A DNA stretch of 64,000 nucleotides, taken from positions 1 to 64,000 of the IMG/VR virus record IMGVR_UViG_3300025168_000038. One strand, given 5' to 3'. Below are positions 42,873 through 49,714 of the stretch, piece by piece (position 1 is the stretch's first letter; each line of letters begins with the position of its first letter). The position numbers were made by a program, and so were the translations under genes. The notes below the pieces were generated by a model. The model saw only the letters and a program-made list of their open reading frames with translations. It had not been told where the DNA came from and searched no databases. The DNA comes from a virus.

Positions 42873-45800
42873 TTATGCATATACTGTAATGTTAATATTT
42901 GGGTTAATACCACTTGGTGTACCATTAGCACATGTTTTTAATACTACAATAAAGCCTGATGTTGTTTTAGTTCTTATTTCACAATATACACAACCACCAG
43001 CATTTTCTATTTCTGGATTAGCATTAACTAAATATGTAGCATTAGATCTTGTTTGGTTAAAAGTTACTTCATATACATAACCTGTTACAGATACAGTGTT
43101 ATTTCCAGAAAATAAAGATTTTCCTTGATTTTCAATTCCTCCTGTACTCATAGCAAAGTAATCAGTTGGTTGTCTATCTACTGCTACTGCAGCTCCACTT
43201 GATGCAGCAGTAAGTCTTCCTTGTTGGTCTACTGTAATAGTAGAACTAGTATACGTACCTGGAGTTACAGATGTATCAGAAATTTTAATTTCTATAGTGT
43301 CATTACCTGCTGATGTTGTTGCTACACCAGTTCCTCCAGATAAAATTAATGTATTTCCATCTGTAATTGAATTTGTAGTTCCAGTATCTCCTTTAGCACT
43401 AAATGAATACTGAGCAGTATCTGTCCACGGAACATTAACTACTAATTGTTCAGCAGCGTTAATTTGTAATCCATATGTTCTACTAGCTATAGCACTTACT
43501 GCATTTGCAGCAACTGTCTGAGTTATATCTGAACTTAATTCAGCACCACCACGTGCAGTAGCTGTCATTAAAGGTAATGCGTAATCATTCCATGGTACAT
43601 TAACTACCATCTGACCTGCAGCATTTAATTGGATACCATATGTTCTAAGTGCAGTAGTACTTATTGAAGCAGAAGCAACTGTTTGAACTGTATTTGAAAA
43701 CAATTCAACTCCACCAAGTACAGTTGCTGTTGCAACTGGTAAAGTGTAAGCTCCAGCATACTGGGGTATGTTAAGAACACCACTACTTAATGTAGCTGCA
43801 CCTGAAGTTCCTGTCGTAGTTAAACTAACAAATGTTGGTGCTGAACCTGCTACAACACTAGTTACATGTCCTTGTGCATCTGTAACTACTGAACTTGGAT
43901 AAGCAAATGTACCTGCTGTACCAAACGCATCATGATTAACTGTAATTGTGTCTGGAGCTGAAGTAACTGAAGTTAATGCAGTTCCTCCTAATACCTTAAC
44001 GGCATTTCCACTTGCAACAGTTTGTGCAAGTCCTGAATCTCCTTGTATAGTAAAGCCTTCATAGTAACCAGGCATAGTATTAATTGCAACCTTATAAACA
44101 TTAGTATCAGTTAGATCACTAAATGCTATAAAGTCTTCTGGTGCTGCTACTACTGTAGATCTTAAGTTAATATAGTTATCAGCACCTAAATAATCCAAGT
44201 TAAAAGTAATTCCGGATGCTGTATTTAGTGTTGTTATACCTAGTCCTCCTGCAAAATCTACTATGTTACCACTATTTATAGTAACATTTGATCCTGCATC
44301 TGCTTGAGTTACCCAAGTATAACCACCTGCAGGACCATTTGCTGCTGCTGTTAGTCTACCTTGTGCGTCAACTGTTATATTAGCATTTGTATATGAACCA
44401 GCTGTTACTGCTGTGTTATCTAAATCAAGTGTAAGCTTTCTTGTACCTGCTAAAGTTGATGTTAAACCAACGCCTCCTAAAACTTCTAATATTTCACCAT
44501 TAGCTACTGTTTGATTTGCTCCTACATCAGAACCAACAGTCCATGATGTCATTCCAGCACCACCACTGCTTGCTGTAGTTATTCTTCCATATGTATCAAC
44601 AGTTACATTTGCATTTGTATAAGATCCTGCTACTACACCACTTGCTGTGCTGTTTATATTAATTGTATCTCCTCCTGAGTTTACAGTAGTTAGAGTACCT
44701 GTAGTATTTCTAAATTTAATTACTTCATCCTTTAAAACCTCTATATTAGTACCTGTTACTGAATCTGCAAGCCATCTATAGTTAGTTGGAAAACTTGATA
44801 GTAATGATTTTTTAATAGTGCTGTCTGTTGCATCACTAAACCAAAAGAAATCATCTGGATCTGGTGCAGCTGTGTTTGCAAATAATATTGCATTAGTTGC
44901 ACTAGCATATGTTATATTTACTGTAGGCGTTAGCGTTGCTGTTCCTGTTACAGTTATCCCATTTCCACCTGATACTGAAGTCACTGTACCACCAGATGCA
45001 TAATTAGGAATATTTAATACTCCTGAATTTAATGTTGCAGCTCCTGATGTTCCAGTAGTTGTTAAACTTGTGAAAGGAATTGTTAACGTAGCTAAATTAC
45101 CTTGACCTGTTATATATTGAGCTGCGCTTCCTGCCCATGTAAATCCTAAAGCTGGTGCAGTTGTAGGGTTTGCAACAGTTACATCAAAAGCATCTCCTGC
45201 AATTGTTGCACTTACTGTAGTTACACTACCAGATCCTGCCGGTATTGCCCATGTATTATCTCCTCTAAGGAATGTAGTATTACCTGGAGTTCCTGTTGCT
45301 GATAAATCTCCTGTAATTGTACCTGCAGCTGTTATTGTTCCACCAGTTACATTTACAAATGTTCCATTAGATGTTGCTACAGAAGTTACTGTACCTGCAG
45401 GAATAGCCGGAAAAGTAACTAAGTCTCCCTCTCCATTTATATATTGAGAAGCTGTACCTGCCATTGTAAAAGATACATTTCCTGCAGTTGTTACAGCAGA
45501 TCCGTCAATAAATGCATTACCATCAGTTTGTAAACCAACAGAAGTTACTGTCCCAGTTCCTACTGTAGGAAAGGTTACTAAATCACCTGCACCATTCACA
45601 TATTGAGATGATGAACCTGCCCAAGTAAAAGCTAATGTACCAGAAGAAGTAATAGGAGTTCCTGCCACATCTAATGCATTACCAGCTGTTGATGCTGCAA
45701 CACTTGTAACTGTTCCAGTTCCACCAGAAGCAGTAATTGTAACTTGGTTTGATCCGTTATCTGATAGTGTTATATTATTACCAGCTACTAATTTTACTGT

Positions 45801-46088
45801 ATCTACACTTGCATCTGACCCTGTAAGTTTTAAATCTACACTCCCTCCAGGTGCTTGTATACTACTATAATCATAAGTAGTATTTGCAGCTACTACAATA
45901 GCATCTGCAAATTGTTTAGCTGAAATTAAATTTTGATCTACTTTAGGTAAGTAAGCCATTACATTTAATGAACTATCTCCTTTATTAGATAGTACAAAAT
46001 AATCATCCTCGCTTGGTACATAAGGTAGAGGTTTTACAAATTTTTTCTTTGAAAATAGTGTTAAAACATCTTGAAGTAGTGAGCCCAT
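42873..46088 (-). CDS. Tail fibre with G/T-rich repeats
   Basis: Repeated GTVTSV and GSYTNANITVDxxGRLTAA units. Confidence 0.85.
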   Translation of the reverse strand: MGSLLQDVLTLFSKKKFVKPLPYVPSEDDYFVLSNKGDSSLNVMAYLPKVDQNLISAKQFADAIVVAANTTYDYSSIQAPGGSVDLKLTGSDASVDTVKLVAGNNITLSDNGSNQVTITASGGTGTVTSVAASTAGNALDVAGTPITSSGTLAFTWAGSSSQYVNGAGDLVTFPTVGTGTVTSVGLQTDGNAFIDGSAVTTAGNVSFTMAGTASQYINGEGDLVTFPAIPAGTVTSVATSNGTFVNVTGGTITAAGTITGDLSATGTPGNTTFLRGDNTWAIPAGSGSVTTVSATIAGDAFDVTVANPTTAPALGFTWAGSAAQYITGQGNLATLTIPFTSLTTTGTSGAATLNSGVLNIPNYASGGTVTSVSGGNGITVTGTATLTPTVNITYASATNAILFANTAAPDPDDFFWFSDATDSTIKKSLLSSFPTNYRWLADSVTGTNIEVLKDEVIKFRNTTGTLTTVNSGGDTININSTASGVVAGSYTNANVTVDTYGRITTASSGGAGMTSWTVGSDVGANQTVANGEILEVLGGVGLTSTLAGTRKLTLDLDNTAVTAGSYTNANITVDAQGRLTAAANGPAGGYTWVTQADAGSNVTINSGNIVDFAGGLGITTLNTASGITFNLDYLGADNYINLRSTVVAAPEDFIAFSDLTDTNVYKVAINTMPGYYEGFTIQGDSGLAQTVASGNAVKVLGGTALTSVTSAPDTITVNHDAFGTAGTFAYPSSVVTDAQGHVTSVVAGSAPTFVSLTTTGTSGAATLSSGVLNIPQYAGAYTLPVATATVLGGVELFSNTVQTVASASISTTALRTYGIQLNAAGQMVVNVPWNDYALPLMTATARGGAELSSDITQTVAANAVSAIASRTYGLQINAAEQLVVNVPWTDTAQYSFSAKGDTGTTNSITDGNTLILSGGTGVATTSAGNDTIEIKISDTSVTPGTYTSSTITVDQQGRLTAASSGAAVAVDRQPTDYFAMSTGGIENQGKSLFSGNNTVSVTGYVYEVTFNQTRSNATYLVNANPEIENAGGCVYCEIRTKTTSGFIVVLKTCANGTPSGINPNINITVYA
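43200..45070 (-). repeat. Intragenic fibre repeats, also shared with the 47855-49477 fibre
   Basis: GSYTNANITVDxxGRLTAA-type units; SLTTTGTSGAATLxSGVLNIPxYA occurs twice. Confidence 0.75.
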
Positions 46089-46098
46089 TGTTTATTGT

Positions 46099-46443
46099 TT
46101 ATAAGTACAGAGCAGATAGCTTTACGCTTGTCTGTGCTGAACATGTTATTGTTATATTACCAGTAGCATCATTAAAAGCATCAACTTCAAAAGGTCCTAA
46201 AAATCCTTCCTCACCAGCCGCTAAGCTAAGTACTGCATTTTCTTTTTTAAGTGTACCCAATAAAGGATCCACTACTGTTGTAACAACTGGAACTACTGTA
46301 GCTGTCATAGTTACACCTCCACCATTTTCAACATGAAAAAATTGTATTGCTGTATTTGCAAGTGTATCACCACTTACACCTGGAGTAACCGTTACAGGTT
46401 TTAATCCAGCTTGAGTTATTTGTTGTGCTGTTAATACTGCCAT
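46099..46443 (-). CDS. Putative structural protein
   Basis: Beta-rich, 114 aa. Confidence 0.55.
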   Translation of the reverse strand: MAVLTAQQITQAGLKPVTVTPGVSGDTLANTAIQFFHVENGGGVTMTATVVPVVTTVVDPLLGTLKKENAVLSLAAGEEGFLGPFEVDAFNDATGNITITCSAQTSVKLSALYL

Positions 46444-46453
46444 AATATTTTAT

Positions 46454-46699
46454 TTATTTACCGTTTACATATCCACTTCTAAAAGCAGCTGACTGAACTG
46501 GTTCTGCAGCTCTAGTAGACTTTTGTGGTGGATTTAAATTTGTTTTCTTTGCTAGCTTAATTCTAGCTGCAACTTTTTTCTTATTCTCAGCATTCTGTAA
46601 TGATTGTTGAATAGATGTAGGATTATAATATCCATTAGTTGTTTCTCTGTTATACACCTCTCCTTGCATAGGAAAGGATGCTTTATTTGCTTTACCCAT
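46454..46699 (-). CDS. Small basic protein
   Basis: 81-aa ORF. Confidence 0.55.
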   Translation of the reverse strand: MGKANKASFPMQGEVYNRETTNGYYNPTSIQQSLQNAENKKKVAARIKLAKKTNLNPPQKSTRAAEPVQSAAFRSGYVNGK

Positions 46700-46704
46700 T
46701 TTTT

Positions 46705-46788
46705 TTATTTTTTAAGTAAGTGTGATCCATCACAAATTCCTTCAGAATTCTGCGTGCCACCACATGTACATTGATTTCTATTATTCAT
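46705..46788 (-). CDS. 27-aa CDGSH iron-sulfur motif peptide (not in ORF track)
   Basis: MNNRNQCTCGGTQNSEGICDGSHLLKK; fills the gap between two co-oriented genes. Confidence 0.8.
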   Translation of the reverse strand: MNNRNQCTCGGTQNSEGICDGSHLLKK

Positions 46789-46789
46789 T

Positions 46790-46987
46790 TTATTTTTTCA
46801 TTTTACCTAATGTTAAAGCAAGCCTAGCACGCTGTGCAGTCTTACCACTTCCTTTTGCTTTCTCTCTCAACCAGCTTTTTTTAATTGTACCATCTGCCTT
46901 CATGGCTCCTGCTCTTTTTGCAGTTGCTTTTAAAGCACCAGGCTTTTTAATTGCCCCTTTGATCCAATTTTTTTTCTTAGCTGCCAT
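46790..46987 (-). CDS. Small highly basic protein
   Basis: KNWIKGAIKKPGAL...QRARLALTLGKM. Confidence 0.7.
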   Translation of the reverse strand: MAAKKKNWIKGAIKKPGALKATAKRAGAMKADGTIKKSWLREKAKGSGKTAQRARLALTLGKMKK

Positions 46988-46992
46988 CCTTA

Positions 46993-47436
46993 TTATTTTT
47001 TACGTCCACTTGATCTGTTACCAGAATAAGCTCTTTTACCTGCAGCTTTTTTAGCTCCTTTACTTTCATCTCTTCTAGACTTCATAGATTGTTTCTTCTT
47101 TCCGTTTCTCATTCCTAAAGACTCATTTAATCTAGAATTGTAACCCTGCTTTTTCTTTTTCTTTTTAACAGCTCCACCTTTTTTCATCATTCCTTGTACA
47201 GGATCTAATACTGAACCACCATTATCTTTAAACATTTCTAAACCACCAGCTGCAGCCATTGTATCCATAGCCATAGCTTGTGGAGTAAGATCTCTCATTC
47301 CATCAATTGATGATGTAAAGCCTCCCATTCCGGTTCCTCCCATATCATATCTTTTCATGTTATTTACTTTTTTCTTTTTTTTCTTTGCTGAAGAGCTTCC
47401 ACCTATTTTGTAAGCATTTCTCATATTGTTTGGCAT
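46993..47436 (-). CDS. Basic low-complexity protein with K/M-GG motifs
   Basis: YKIGG, YDMGG, MKKGG and poly-K runs. Confidence 0.65.
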   Translation of the reverse strand: MPNNMRNAYKIGGSSSAKKKKKKVNNMKRYDMGGTGMGGFTSSIDGMRDLTPQAMAMDTMAAAGGLEMFKDNGGSVLDPVQGMMKKGGAVKKKKKKQGYNSRLNESLGMRNGKKKQSMKSRRDESKGAKKAAGKRAYSGNRSSGRKK

Positions 47437-47448
47437 AATTTCTAAATT

Positions 47449-47850
47449 TTATTTGTTATTGTTTTTTACTTTTTCTAATGAACGTCCTCCAAAGTATGCA
47501 CCTATTACTGTAATTAAAACTAATTGTAATAAATCCACCCAAGAAGCTTTGACATCAAATGAAATAAAACCTGCATCAACAAATACTAATAGTACTGTTG
47601 ATACAACTAAAAATATTAATGTCATTGGTCTTACGTTCTTACTTAACCAACTATCTGAATTCATATCTGAACTCCATCTTGTTGAAATTTCTTTCTCCAT
47701 ATCTACTTCATGCTTGGAGATTAACTCTTTTATCTTTAACTCAGCAGCAAGCTTTTCATCAGCTGAAGTATGTAGCTCGTCTATAACTCCACCAATACCT
47801 TTAACTAATTCTTTAGCTCCTCCTGAAAATATTTTACTTAGTATACTCAT
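47449..47850 (-). CDS. Holin (3TM GTA-holin-like)
   Basis: RWSSDMNSDSWLSKNVRP, two transmembrane helices and YFGGRSLEK. Confidence 0.85.
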   Translation of the reverse strand: MSILSKIFSGGAKELVKGIGGVIDELHTSADEKLAAELKIKELISKHEVDMEKEISTRWSSDMNSDSWLSKNVRPMTLIFLVVSTVLLVFVDAGFISFDVKASWVDLLQLVLITVIGAYFGGRSLEKVKNNNK

Positions 47851-47854
47851 AATT

Positions 47855-49477
47855 TTATGGATAAATTATAATTTCTATTCCTGTTCTTTCTAATACACTA
47901 TCAGCTTGAGTTAAAGATGAAGTCTCATAGGTAAATATATTAAAGCTATTAGTAGTTGCTGATGTTATATTTGTTAATGAAGGTCCGTTCTTATAATTTC
48001 CTGTTGCAGCTGTCATATATACTTTATTTACATCAGCTAATGCAGATGACCATGTAGCTCTATAATTTCCTACTCCTACACGTACATAAGTTAATGTTTT
48101 ACCTGTTGTGTTTTCTAAAACTGTTTCTACTGGATTTCCATTTGTTGTCTGAGTTAACAGAGCTCTATAAACTGTAGAACCAACAGAACCTGCTGTTATA
48201 GAAGTAACATGTCCTTGTGCATTTGTTGTAATTGATGAAGGAGATGCATATGTTCCCGCTGTACCATAATCATTATGATTTATAGTTACTCTTTTCTGTT
48301 GAGCTTGACCAGTTGGTGTGAGCTCAGCACCAACAGTACCTAAGGCTGTACCTCCTACAATATTTAAATCTTCTTCATTTGTTACAGCACTGCTTCCTAC
48401 AAGTATATTATTAGCTCTAACTAAAAAACCATTATAAAAACCAGGCATAAGATAAATCTGTTGCTTTATAAGTTGATCACCTGCACTACTATCACTATAC
48501 ATTATATAGTCTACAGTTGCTGGAGTAACTGTAGGTCTTGACATTATTAAGTTATCTGTACCTAAAGCATTCACACCTATTGTTACTGTGTCAGCTGCAC
48601 TTACTCCTATTTTAAGACCACCTTCTGTTGATGATAAATTTGATTGTGTAAAAGTTACTGTATCATTATTAGCTATAGCCTGTGTTGTAGATCCATCTGT
48701 TATATTAAATGTATAACTACCTCCTCCACCTGATCCATTACTTGCTGCAGTCAATCTACCCTGTTGATCTACAGTAATGTTTGCATTGGTGTAAGATCCC
48801 GGTGTAACAGCGGTGTCATCTAAGTCAATTTCTAATGTACCATTTAGACCTGATGCAGCCATACTAGTTGTAATTCCTGTATCTCCACTAATCAATAAAC
48901 TAAATCCTGACCCTACACTTATGCTAGGGTTTAAACCACCATCTGATCTTACTACCCAATTATATGTATTAGTAATTGTTAGCTCATCAGCAGTTTGTCC
49001 AATAGTAATATTAGTTCCCTCAACTAATGTTCTAAAGTTAAGTGTCTCACCAACTTTATTTTTCCATACTTCTTTACCAGTTCCTACATTAGCTGCAAGA
49101 TTAGGTTCACCTGTTGTTGTAATTTCTATATAATCATCATCTGCAGAAGTAGCAAGAGTAAGGTTGCTGCTCATTGATTTAAGGGATCTATAAAATACAG
49201 TACACTTTTGTGTAGTTGGATCAACTACAGTTTTTTGATATACTTGCCCTGTACCAGCAGCTGGTATAGCTGGAGAATTTGCATGGTCACAATGTTCAGC
49301 AGCAACCTTAAAATCTCTTACCTTTATTACTTTTATGCTTTTATAAGGAATAGGAGAGGCAACACCAGTCATATCTGGTTCTTCATTCACACCTAAAACT
49401 AATACATCATCAAGACCTGCTGTCTTTGCATATACAGATCTTTTTATTAAACTTAATACATCAGTTAAAATGTTCAT
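47855..49477 (-). CDS. Tail fibre
   Basis: Shared N-terminus; LNFRTLVEG and GSYTNANITVDQQGRLTAA. Confidence 0.8.
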   Translation of the reverse strand: MNILTDVLSLIKRSVYAKTAGLDDVLVLGVNEEPDMTGVASPIPYKSIKVIKVRDFKVAAEHCDHANSPAIPAAGTGQVYQKTVVDPTTQKCTVFYRSLKSMSSNLTLATSADDDYIEITTTGEPNLAANVGTGKEVWKNKVGETLNFRTLVEGTNITIGQTADELTITNTYNWVVRSDGGLNPSISVGSGFSLLISGDTGITTSMAASGLNGTLEIDLDDTAVTPGSYTNANITVDQQGRLTAASNGSGGGGSYTFNITDGSTTQAIANNDTVTFTQSNLSSTEGGLKIGVSAADTVTIGVNALGTDNLIMSRPTVTPATVDYIMYSDSSAGDQLIKQQIYLMPGFYNGFLVRANNILVGSSAVTNEEDLNIVGGTALGTVGAELTPTGQAQQKRVTINHNDYGTAGTYASPSSITTNAQGHVTSITAGSVGSTVYRALLTQTTNGNPVETVLENTTGKTLTYVRVGVGNYRATWSSALADVNKVYMTAATGNYKNGPSLTNITSATTNSFNIFTYETSSLTQADSVLERTGIEIIIYP

Positions 49478-49481
49478 TGTT

Positions 49482-49583
49482 TTATTTTTTACTATCTTTG
49501 GTTTTACATAAGTGCTTTCTACAATAACCCATACAGATTTTTCCTCTTGAAAGCCATTGTATTAATAAACATAAGTTTCTCAT
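49482..49583 (-). CDS. 33-aa Cys-rich basic peptide (not in ORF track)
   Basis: MRNLCLLIQWLSRGKICMGYCRKHLCKTKDSKK; ATGA overlap with the upstream gene. Confidence 0.5.
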   Translation of the reverse strand: MRNLCLLIQWLSRGKICMGYCRKHLCKTKDSKK

Positions 49584-49714
49584 CTTCCTTGACCTCTATA
49601 TTTTTTTTTATAATTCTTACTACTTACTAAATTTGAGTTTTTAGACTTAGAGTGTACTCCTGGTCTTTTAGCTCTACTAGGTTTAGCATATGTATTGTGT
49701 AATATCCTAGACAT
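49580..49714 (-). CDS. 44-aa basic peptide (not in ORF track)
   Basis: MSRILHNTYAKPSRAKRPGVHSKSKNSNLVSSKNYKKKYRGQGR; TAATG coupling. Confidence 0.65.
   Translation of the reverse strand: MSRILHNTYAKPSRAKRPGVHSKSKNSNLVSSKNYKKKYRGQGR

What the first reader, a model, noticed from the sequence alone, without database searches (positions are those of the whole stretch)
46705..46788. Hidden 27-aa CDGSH [2Fe-2S]-motif micro-protein in the late operon
Seen: MNNRNQCTCGGTQNSEGICDGSHLLKK starts 1 nt after the upstream stop and ends 5 nt before the next ATG, so it is probably a real gene below the ORF cutoff. Established: CDGSH/NEET domains bind a labile [2Fe-2S] cluster through 3 Cys and 1 His in C-x-C-x2-(S/T)-x3-P-x-C-D-G-S-H. 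All four ligands are present here, with one extra spacer residue, no Pro and no beta-cap or membrane anchor. Inference: close to the smallest possible NEET-type module, possibly an iron/Fe-S scavenger, carrier or redox sensor in an iron-limited marine host. It may instead bind Zn.
Basis: partly seen in the sequence, partly recalled or inferred. Interest (0 to 1): 0.75.

Follow-up and report, generated by a model that had tools for sequence, protein, structure and literature searches.

The report
Phage copy of motif-only CDGSH micro-protein
A real 27-residue phage gene encodes little more than the metal-binding loop of CDGSH (mitoNEET-type) iron-sulfur proteins; it is a phage copy of an unannotated micro-protein common in marine flavobacteria, and which metal it binds is untested.

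Summary
The ORF exists exactly as described (minus strand, 46788 to 46705) and is a real gene. The same frame is kept in 28 distinct viral DNA versions (core pN/pS 0.26). It is the only frame open in all 11 syntenic relatives. It comes and goes as a clean ~85-nt cassette.

It belongs to a large, mostly unannotated family: 258 protein-cluster representatives and 187 GTDB species genomes, nearly all marine Flavobacteriia. The signature is C-x-C, nine residues, then C-D-G-S-H. Profile-profile comparison links it specifically to the cluster-binding loop of CDGSH domains (97%, P 9e-11; shuffles score half). Eight of the nine universally conserved motif residues are kept.

It is not a NEET/CISD domain. 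It has one extra loop residue, no hydrophobic interface residues, no N-strand, no lid-proline and no beta-sandwich, and it scores 13.7 bits against Pfam's 29.5 cut-off.

Host copies sit directly after, or fused to, YceI, beside MarR, rhodanese or FMN reductase, and one relative is fused to rubredoxin. That points to redox chemistry, not iron scavenging. The phage has none of these partners, and its copy often lies near the holin.

[2Fe-2S] versus Zn remains open.

The parts
46705..46788 (-). Micro-gene: 27 codons plus TAA; motif-only CDGSH-like metallopeptide
   Evidence: ORF; homologues in 4 holin-fetched and 40 motif-fetched viral loci; pN/pS 0.26 over 28 distinct cores; the only frame open in 11 of 11 syntenic versions
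46720..46770 (-). 17-residue core from Cys7 to His23: C-x-C-G-x-T-x-N-S-E-G-x-C-D-G-S-H; putative ligands Cys7, Cys9, Cys19, His23
   Evidence: Invariant C, C, G, T, G, C, D, G, H columns in alignments A2/A4; hhalign to the canonical CDGSH motif, 20 columns with 1 gap, Prob 97%
46789..46803 (-). A-rich start context (A at -3), overlapping the end of the upstream gene; no Shine-Dalgarno sequence, as usual in Bacteroidota and their phages
   Evidence: A at -3 in 66% of 29 distinct viral starts and 67% of 78 cellular starts, against 33% A in the window; PMC6847099 abstract: A at -3 favours initiation in Bacteroidetes
46790..46987 (-). Upstream neighbour: 65-aa Lys-rich protein (context, same operon)
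   Evidence: phrog_20603, E 5.6e-9, function unknown; homologues precede the micro-gene in several relatives
46454..46699 (-). Downstream neighbour: 81-aa protein (context); in relatives without the micro-gene it abuts the upstream gene
   Evidence: clean presence or absence of the cassette just upstream of this gene
47449..47850 (-). Three-TM holin (context); a holin of this family lies within about 1.3 kb of the micro-gene in at least 15 of 29 distinct viral versions
   Evidence: phrog_3427, E 7.6e-31
46099..46443 (-). 114-aa tail protein (context; marks the late structural operon)
   Evidence: phrog_16194 tail protein, E 1.9e-8

Best explanation
The ORF is a translated phage gene for a 27-residue cytoplasmic metallopeptide. 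The whole peptide is one CDGSH-type metal-binding loop (Cys7, Cys9, Cys19, His23) with short basic flanks.

It is a phage-adapted copy of a stand-alone 25-31-aa micro-protein of marine Flavobacteriia. In the hosts that micro-protein is encoded directly after, or fused to the cytoplasmic N-terminus of, the membrane or periplasmic quinone/isoprenoid-binding protein YceI. It sits in units with MarR, rhodanese or NADPH:FMN reductase.

Shown: the gene is real and under purifying selection; the family is large; it is specifically similar to the CDGSH cluster-binding loop; the host context is as described; the phage copy sits in the late operon near the holin.

Inferred: the loop most likely cradles a solvent-exposed, labile [2Fe-2S] cluster as canonical CDGSH loops do, probably with two peptides pairing. 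It would then act as a small redox or cluster-state module at the inner face of the membrane. The phage would express its own version late in infection to replace or mimic the host peptide and so influence membrane and quinone redox state around lysis. The function of the phage copy is the weakest step.
For: Real gene:
- homologues in 44 viral loci.
- pN/pS 0.26, with synonymous variation at invariant Gly, Thr and His codons.
- the only frame open in 11 of 11 syntenic versions; motif absent from 100 simulated windows.
- a discrete cassette, present or absent.
- conserved ATG 6-7 codons before the first Cys, with A at -3.

Family size:
- 258 representatives.
- x9 spacing in 144 of 149 modules.
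- 187 GTDB species; 75 of 79 are stand-alone ORFs of 25-31 aa.

CDGSH relationship:
- hhalign Prob 97%, P 9e-11, score 41.6, against a shuffle maximum of 21.
- C2, C4, T7, C13, D14, G15, S/T16 and H17 conserved.
- P0078/P0177, a Pfam-passing tandem CISD protein, has the same N-P-E-G one-residue-longer loop in its first motif.
- P0122, three motif-only repeats with canonical spacing, passes Pfam at 70.6 bits.

Redox context:
- YceI immediately upstream in 55 of 79 cellular loci; rhodanese and MarR in 37; FMN reductase in 15.
- fusions to YceI (many clusters) and DoxX.
- rubredoxin fusion P0119.

Phage side:
- crAss-like portal with Cellulophaga, Flavobacterium and Bacteroides phage relatives.
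- a distinct phage subtype of the peptide.
- holin adjacency in several different gene arrangements.
Against: - No metal-binding data of any kind.
- Pfam zf-CDGSH scores only 13.7 bits (cut-off 29.5), and none of 23 members reaches the threshold.
- The PDB profile search finds CISD2 only at E about 1.3, through the pentapeptide alone.
- All solved CDGSH domains need a beta-sandwich, an N-strand, a lid proline and pairing (PMC3174974). None of these can exist in 27 residues, and the hydrophobic interface positions are polar here.
- The AF2 model is weak (pLDDT 65) and has no structural match.
- Some fusion partners (ribosomal protein S16, FKBP isomerase, dUTPase, HeH-like segments) fit a Zn knuckle at least as well.
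- The phage lacks YceI and FMN reductase, so its partner is unknown.
- Only 4 of 18 syntenic holin-fetched relatives keep the gene, so it is dispensable.
Confidence: 0.55

Rival explanations
1. Mononuclear metal knuckle. The same four ligands bind a single Zn(II) or a single iron ion, as in the SecA-type metal-binding domain. The peptide is then a structural or interaction tag that docks onto a protein, the ribosome or nucleic acid, and is not an Fe-S redox centre.
For: - The peptide is short, terminal and autonomous, with a 3Cys+1His ligand set starting C-x-C-G and basic flanks.
- It is attached like a tag to the termini of unrelated proteins: ribosomal S16, FKBP isomerase, dUTPase, XkdF protease.
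- Tandem copies are joined by flexible Pro/Ala/Lys linkers, like beads on a string.
- There is no beta-sandwich or lid proline to shield a cluster.
- The SecA MBD (CXCX8CH, about 22 aa) binds Zn in vitro and iron in vivo (bioRxiv 10.1101/613315).
Against: - None of 23 members matched the SEC-C model even at E up to 10.
- There was no SEC-C match in six-frame scans of 5 host genomes that each carry the micro-gene.
- The spacing differs: x9 and C-x3-H here, against x8 and adjacent C-H.
- The invariant Thr, Asp, Gly and Ser are exactly the structure-maintaining residues of the 2Fe-2S cradle.
- The x9 loop replaces a canonical motif inside a genuine tandem CISD protein.
- The rubredoxin, YceI, FMN reductase and rhodanese associations favour redox chemistry.
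Confidence: 0.33
2. One reading: an iron or Fe-S scavenger or carrier that helps the phage in an iron-limited ocean. This is a sub-case of the Fe-S reading.
For: NEET proteins can transfer their labile cluster (general knowledge). The phage encodes an iron-dependent class I ribonucleotide reductase. The setting is marine.
Against: - No iron-uptake, siderophore, Suf/Isc or ferritin genes lie next to any of the 79 cellular or 40 viral copies examined.
- The phage copy is in the late structural and lysis operon, not with the replication or RNR genes.
- One cluster per 27-aa peptide is a poor store.
Confidence: 0.06
3. No peptide function. The ORF is either a short upstream reading frame kept only for translational coupling to the 81-aa gene, or a decaying hitch-hiker, or a precursor of a modified or secreted Cys-rich peptide.
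For: It is very small, tightly packed between genes, absent from most relatives, and there is no expression data.
Against: - The amino-acid sequence, not just the frame, is conserved between phages and bacteria.
- The same module is an in-frame part of larger proteins.
- Relatives that lack it couple the neighbouring genes directly.
- No modifying enzymes or export signals are nearby.
Confidence: 0.05

Closest known systems
CDGSH iron-sulfur domains (CISD / NEET proteins; Pfam PF09360; types 1-7 of Lin et al. 2011, PMC3174974)
   Same: Same ligand order and chemistry (Cys, Cys, Cys, His). The same conserved Thr/Ser after the C-x-C and the same invariant C-D-G-(S/T)-H. Significant profile-profile match to the cluster-binding loop. 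Tandem forms occur. One bona fide tandem CISD protein carries the same x9 loop.
   Different: One extra residue between the C-x-C and the third Cys. The Pro is shifted by one position (and absent in the window copy). The hydrophobic positions 1 and 12 are polar. There is no N-strand, P motif or lid proline, no beta-sandwich and no membrane anchor. The peptide is 27 aa, against at least about 60 aa for a folded CISD. It scores below Pfam's threshold.
Motif-only CDGSH micro-protein of marine Flavobacteriia coupled to YceI
   Same: Same length, same x9 motif, same start context; 62-79% identity over the 24 central residues. The likely hosts of this crAss-like phage are Bacteroidota.
   Different: The phage copies form their own subtype: x-Q before the first Cys instead of R-P-K, an aliphatic or polar residue instead of Tyr/Phe before the third Cys, and an L-L-(K/N)-K tail. 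They lie in a late structural and lysis operon, and there is no YceI, MarR or FMN reductase in the phage genome.
SecA-like metal-binding domain (SEC-C motif, PF02810; CXCX8C[H/C]); bioRxiv 10.1101/613315
   Same: About 20-residue autonomous terminal module; 3 Cys + 1 His; starts C-x-C-G; a conserved hydroxyl residue shortly after; basic flanks; a metal identity that was long mis-assigned.
   Different: Different spacing and final ligand geometry. No HMM similarity. The SecA MBD binds one metal ion, not a cluster.
Smallest natural iron proteins: rubredoxin (about 45-54 aa) and desulforedoxin (36 aa). Own knowledge, not tested here.
   Same: Tiny Cys-ligated iron redox proteins. One family member is fused to a rubredoxin domain.
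   Different: Those bind a single Fe(Cys)4 centre and have a defined fold. The peptide here is shorter and has a His ligand.

Membership tests
CDGSH iron-sulfur domain (PF09360 / CISD) | Three Cys and one His in the order C-x-C ... C-x3-H | tested here: met
   Cys7, Cys9, Cys19, His23; invariant in 67 aligned members, though partly by construction of the searches
CDGSH iron-sulfur domain (PF09360 / CISD) | Canonical spacing: eight residues between C-x-C and the third Cys | tested here: not met
   Nine residues in the window copy and in 144 of 149 family modules; 27 of 27 two-ligand-pair canonical modules used for comparison have eight
CDGSH iron-sulfur domain (PF09360 / CISD) | Structure-maintaining residues (S/T)7, D14, G15, (S/T/A)16 conserved | tested here: met
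   Thr in 27 of 28 cores, Asp in 28 of 28, Gly in 28 of 28, Ser/Thr in 28 of 28 distinct viral cores; the same in 58 cellular versions; residue list from PMC3174974
CDGSH iron-sulfur domain (PF09360 / CISD) | Hydrophobic residue 1, Pro11 and hydrophobic residue 12 forming the dimer or beta-sandwich interface | tested here: not met
   Position 1 is Gln/Lys. The Pro sits one position earlier and is Ser in the window copy. The residue before the third Cys is Ile here and variable in phages
CDGSH iron-sulfur domain (PF09360 / CISD) | N-strand, P motif (lid proline) and beta-sandwich dimerisation module | tested here: not met
   Only 6 residues precede the first Cys and 4 follow the His. hhalign aligns only template columns 29-48 of 50. 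AF2 shows no strands
CDGSH iron-sulfur domain (PF09360 / CISD) | Pfam gathering score (29.5 bits) | tested here: not met
   13.7 bits, E 0.076; best of 23 members E 0.005; 11.4 bits in the genome scan
CDGSH iron-sulfur domain (PF09360 / CISD) | Profile-level similarity to the cluster-binding loop beyond chance | tested here: met
   hhalign Prob 97.0%, P 9.1e-11, score 41.6; 40 column shuffles gave a maximum of 21.0 and a mean of 9.6
CDGSH iron-sulfur domain (PF09360 / CISD) | Binds a redox-active, pH-labile [2Fe-2S] cluster | not testable with these tools
   Needs reconstitution and spectroscopy
SecA-like metal-binding domain (SEC-C, PF02810) | CXCX8C(H/C) motif recognised by the family model | tested here: not met
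   Spacing is x9 plus C-x3-H. No member of A2 matched PF02810 at E up to 10. No match in six-frame scans of 5 genomes that carry the micro-gene
Flavobacterial motif-only CDGSH micro-protein (unnamed) | Stand-alone ORF of 25-31 aa with C-x-C-G-x-T-x2-(P/S)-x-G-x-C-D-G-(S/T)-H | tested here: met
Flavobacterial motif-only CDGSH micro-protein (unnamed) | Encoded directly downstream of, or fused to, a YceI-like gene | tested here: not met
   True for 55 of 79 cellular loci. The phage record has no YceI, and the gene sits between small basic late proteins

The most novel reading that the evidence does not exclude
The family is the smallest natural iron-sulfur protein: a 25-31-residue peptide that is nothing but a CDGSH loop and holds a labile [2Fe-2S] cluster, perhaps bridging two peptides. 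It would work at the cytoplasmic face of the membrane with YceI, DoxX and quinone-redox partners. Marine crAss-like phages would have captured and remodelled it as a micro auxiliary gene placed beside the holin, so that the redox or cluster state of the cell feeds into the late stage or the timing of lysis.
Probability: 0.2. Interest if true: 0.85.

Novelty: new variant of a known kind. Interest (0 to 1): 0.6.

Why it matters
If the peptide holds a [2Fe-2S] cluster, it would set a new lower size limit for natural Fe-S proteins. It would also show that the CDGSH loop is an autonomous cofactor-binding unit, which bears on how NEET proteins evolved and on minimal Fe-S design. Whatever the metal, this is a micro-protein family that is abundant in marine Flavobacteriia (187 GTDB species representatives) and their phages, and that gene callers mostly miss because its members are shorter than about 30 codons. 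Phage carriage of a 27-codon host-derived gene is an example of a micro-sized auxiliary gene. The recurrent placement beside a holin gives a testable lead on a link between host redox state and lysis.

Tried and rejected
- **DNA search of the surrounding 4 kb against GenBank phages:** only short, unrelated hits.
- **tblastn of the peptide against GenBank phages:** nothing. The gene is known only from uncultured viral contigs.
- **PHROGs and NCBIfam:** no family for the peptide.
- **PDB profile search:** nothing significant. The top hits were designed beta-trefoils matching N-P-D-G; CISD2 appeared only at E about 1.3.
- **AlphaFold2 of the window peptide with a 67-sequence alignment:** pLDDT 65, no secondary structure. 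Foldseek against PDB and VIA-align wide found no match. This is uninformative for a metal-dependent 30-mer.
- **Single-sequence AF2 of P0078:** unusable, pLDDT 40.
- **The search for homologous proteins with the 27-aa alignment:** Solved by putting a 40-aa member first (A3).
- **SEC-C comparison profile:** none could be built because five host genomes gave no SEC-C match at all.
- **Literature:** no paper on viral, motif-only or YceI-linked CDGSH peptides.
- **Readings rejected:** opposite-strand ORFs of 56 and 110 aa over the same DNA (not open in relatives); a leader or coupling ORF; a RiPP precursor (see rivals).
- **Not attempted:** a phylogeny of 24-residue peptides, because the resolution would be too low. 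Only identity and signature comparisons are given.

Full report
**Observation**

The ATG is at 46788 and the stop codon at 46707-46705. It lies 1 nt after the stop of a 65-aa Lys-rich ORF (46790-46987) and 5 nt before the ATG of an 81-aa ORF (46454-46699). It encodes 27 residues. The putative ligands are Cys7, Cys9, Cys19 and His23, spaced C-x-C-x9-C-x3-H. In 100 simulated windows of the same first-order composition, neither CDGSH nor the full motif appeared in any frame. The bare four-ligand pattern is expected 0.14 times per window. The window is part of a 108-kb IMG/VR virus record, estimated 94% complete, and the ORF is single-copy in it. The surrounding minus-strand genes are late genes:
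- a three-TM holin (phrog_3427, E 7.6e-31);
- a tail protein (phrog_16194);
- two large fibre-like proteins;
- several small, very basic proteins.

The portal is crAss-like, and its nearest isolates are Cellulophaga, Flavobacterium and Bacteroides phages. A marine Bacteroidota host is therefore plausible.

**Is it a gene?**

Loci fetched through the holin, which were chosen without reference to the motif, gave 80 relatives. Eighteen of these share the holin, 81-aa gene and 114-aa gene arrangement. Four of the 18 carry the micro-ORF with all four ligands intact, at 48-78% identity. In the others, the stop of the upstream gene sits 5-20 nt from the ATG of the 81-aa gene, with no remnant between them. 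So the gene is a discrete cassette of about 85 nt that is either present or absent.

A motif-based scan of IMG/VR found 40 loci. They hold 28 distinct DNA versions of the 17-codon core. There is abundant synonymous change at the invariant Gly, Thr and His codons, and pN/pS is 0.26. The invariance of the Cys and His residues is partly built into the search patterns, so I give it less weight than the synonymous-site pattern. Across 11 distinct syntenic versions, the proposed frame is the only one that is always open; the other five frames are open in at most four. This removes the overlapping opposite-strand ORFs of 56 and 110 aa. An ATG lies 6-7 codons before the first Cys in most copies. It has adenine at -3 in 66% of viral starts and 67% of cellular starts, against 33% A in the window. 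That is the initiation signal described for Bacteroidetes, which lack Shine-Dalgarno sequences (PMC6847099).

**Extent of the family**

A profile of the stand-alone peptides found 258 cluster representatives at E up to 0.001 among 1.84 billion proteins.
- 144 of 149 modules have the nine-residue spacing, and 145 of 149 have D-G-(S/T) between the third Cys and the His.
- Most members are 25-60 aa. Many of the longer ones look like start codons called too far upstream.
- Ten proteins hold two or three modules in tandem, joined by Pro/Ala/Lys-rich linkers.

In GTDB species representatives, 187 stretches encode a relative. Of the best 80, all but three are marine Flavobacteriaceae, Flavobacteriales, Cryomorphaceae, Crocinitomicaceae or unclassified Bacteroidota. 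One is a closed Candidatus Arcticimaribacter forsetii chromosome. In 75 of 79 the gene is a stand-alone ORF of 25-31 aa. The ESM Atlas holds look-alike clusters of 27-42 aa named only "hypothetical protein". No GenBank phage has the gene, and I found no paper on it.

**Relation to CDGSH domains**

Lin et al. 2011 (PMC3174974) define a 17-residue motif: a hydrophobic residue, C-x-C-x-x-(S/T)-x-x-x-P, a hydrophobic residue, then C-D-G-(S/T/A)-H. They name C2, C4, (S/T)7, P11, C13, D14, G15, (S/T/A)16 and H17 as universally conserved. They also state that the loop needs an N-strand, a lid-proline P motif and a beta-sandwich, and that it always works in pairs.

The phage-and-host family keeps eight of those nine residues at 90-100%. 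It differs in four ways:
- It has one extra loop residue.
- Its Pro is one position earlier, and is Ser in the window copy.
- The hydrophobic interface positions are polar.
- There is no sequence available for strands or a sandwich.

The replacement of P-plus-hydrophobic by a polar P-(D/N/E)-G-x turn is what one would expect if the sandwich the loop packs against had been lost. That is my inference.

Pfam's model gives 13.7 bits against a cut-off of 29.5, and 10 of 23 members match it at all. The PDB sequence profile search finds CISD2 only at E about 1.3, through the pentapeptide.

A profile-profile comparison against 27 canonical domains taken from 15 Pfam-positive tandem CISD proteins gave Prob 97%, P 9e-11 and score 41.6, over 20 columns with one gap. 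Forty column-shuffled controls reached at most 21.0. The match covers only the loop, not the 28 preceding columns of the domain.

Two natural links support equivalence of the loops:
- P0078/P0177, from a eukaryotic transcriptome, passes Pfam at 53 bits. It is an ordinary tandem CISD protein whose first motif has the same N-P-E-G loop, one residue longer than usual.
- P0122 is three motif-only repeats with canonical spacing and passes Pfam at 70.6 bits.

Structure prediction did not help.

My verdict is that the peptide is homologous to, or at least specifically modelled on, the CDGSH cluster-binding loop, but that it is not a CISD/NEET domain.

**The Zn rival**

The SecA-type metal-binding domain is the closest mononuclear analogue. 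It is about 22 aa, terminal, CXCX8CH, starts C-x-C-G and has a conserved Ser. It binds Zn in vitro and iron in vivo (bioRxiv 10.1101/613315). The family here does not match the SEC-C model. Five host genomes that each carry the micro-gene gave no SEC-C match in six-frame scans. Even so, several features fit a simple metal knuckle, and I keep this rival at about one third:
- the tag-like attachment to the termini of unrelated proteins (ribosomal protein S16, an FKBP isomerase, dUTPase, an XkdF-type phage protease, HeH-like segments);
- the beads-on-a-string tandem forms;
- the lack of any shielding for a cluster.

**Context and likely role**

In 55 of 79 cellular loci a YceI-like gene (PF04264, 96.9 bits) ends a few nucleotides before the micro-gene's ATG, on the same strand.
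- 37 loci show a divergently transcribed rhodanese, then MarR, YceI and the micro-gene.
- 15 loci have an NADPH-dependent FMN reductase immediately downstream of the micro-gene: 11 with YceI upstream (one of these truncated at the contig end), 4 with YidC upstream.
- Dozens of protein clusters have the module as the cytoplasmic N-terminus of a membrane-anchored YceI. One of them has 216 member sequences, and some are named "YceI family protein" by NCBI.
- Other clusters fuse the module to DoxX, and one protein fuses it to a rubredoxin domain (28.3 bits, cut-off 23).

This is a redox and quinone-stress neighbourhood. It favours a redox-active centre over a structural Zn site, but it does not prove one.

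The phage genome has no YceI or FMN reductase. Its peptide belongs to a phage subtype that differs from the host consensus just before the first Cys, just before the third Cys, and in the tail. In other viral contigs, more host-like copies (83-92% identity) lie beside an exonuclease, a phage GroEL, the terminase genes, or between an epimerase and PhoH.

A holin of the same family lies within about 1.3 kb in at least 15 of 29 distinct viral versions, in several different gene orders. In L102 and in L114-118 the micro-gene follows the holin directly. These phages are related, and the region around the holin may simply be an insertion hot-spot, so I treat the holin link as a lead only.

**Mechanism I commit to (about 0.55)**

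The gene makes a cytoplasmic metallopeptide that is a bare CDGSH loop, most likely holding a labile [2Fe-2S] cluster, perhaps shared or paired between two peptides. The phage expresses its own version late in infection to stand in for, or interfere with, the host peptide that works with YceI and quinone-redox partners at the inner face of the membrane.
- Shown: the gene is real; the family exists; it is related to the CDGSH loop; the contexts are as described.
- Inferred: the identity of the metal; pairing; the phage's purpose.

**Earlier notes of this scan**

After I had derived the YceI coupling, a look-up showed that the scan had already met the cellular family on other DNA. Note e1-5248670 reaches the same reading for a flavobacterial genome, with a follow-up agent's report. 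Note e1-4005562 reports an HxlR-YceI-micro-CDGSH unit. My results agree with both, and add:
- the phage copies and their subtype;
- the cassette behaviour;
- the hhalign test;
- the x9 loop inside a genuine CISD protein;
- the rubredoxin, DoxX, dUTPase and S16 fusions;
- the SEC-C negative test.

Noticed in passing
window 46790-46987, 46993-47436, 46454-46699, 49580-49714 (all minus strand): A set of small, extremely Lys/Arg-rich proteins (65, 147, 81 and 44 aa) surrounds the holin. Homologues of the 65-aa and 44-aa proteins recur next to the micro-gene in non-syntenic viral contigs (L114-L120). The 65-aa protein matches phrog_20603 (function unknown) and, weakly and below cut-off, the fusellovirus VP2 DNA-binding capsid protein (E 0.011). 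They may be packaged DNA-binding proteins.
   Followed up: partly
window 42873-46088 and 47855-49477 (minus strand): The 1071-aa and 540-aa proteins share repeated segments of the type T-x-G-S-Y-T-N-A-N-I-T-V-D-x-Q-G-R-L-T-A-A, typical of fibre-like proteins. Short DNA matches to structural or tail-fibre genes of Synechococcus phages S-CBS2 and S-RIP1 fall in this region.
   Followed up: no
L096:1894-3063 (+): A 390-aa phage protein combines an XkdF-type serine protease (PF14550), a DUF3721 Cys/His mini-domain (PF12518) and the micro-CDGSH module as its C-terminal tail. That is two different tiny Cys/His modules in one prohead-protease-like protein.
   Followed up: partly
P0237, P0240, P0260 (about 225 aa): dUTPase (PF00692) proteins with the module at the extreme N-terminus, followed by an acidic linker. 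One cluster has 67 member sequences. Whether they are cellular or viral was not determined.
   Followed up: no
L197 (Opitutae MAG) and P0115, P0205, P0206, P0219: Ribosomal protein S16 with a long acidic Ala/Pro/Glu-rich C-terminal extension that carries one module. This fusion fits the Zn-knuckle reading better than the Fe-S one.
   Followed up: no
G001-G005 (genomes of L140, L144, L169, L187, L201): None of five marine Flavobacteriia genomes gave any SEC-C (PF02810) match at E up to 0.01, although 8 of 14 control genomes do, Bacteroides thetaiotaomicron among them. Their SecA may lack the C-terminal metal-binding domain.
   Followed up: no
P0005, P0192-P0194, P0004, P0009: Tandem two- and three-module proteins with Pro/Ala/Arg-rich N-terminal regions. 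The P0005 N-terminus resembles an organellar transit peptide, so these may be proteins of eukaryotic picoplankton. Their sources are unnamed ENA or JGI contigs.
   Followed up: no
L100:467-2056 (+); L108:1953-3795 (+): In other viral contigs the micro-gene sits immediately upstream of a phage-encoded GroEL chaperonin, or between a nucleotide-sugar epimerase and PhoH, which is a classic auxiliary-gene neighbourhood.
   Followed up: partly
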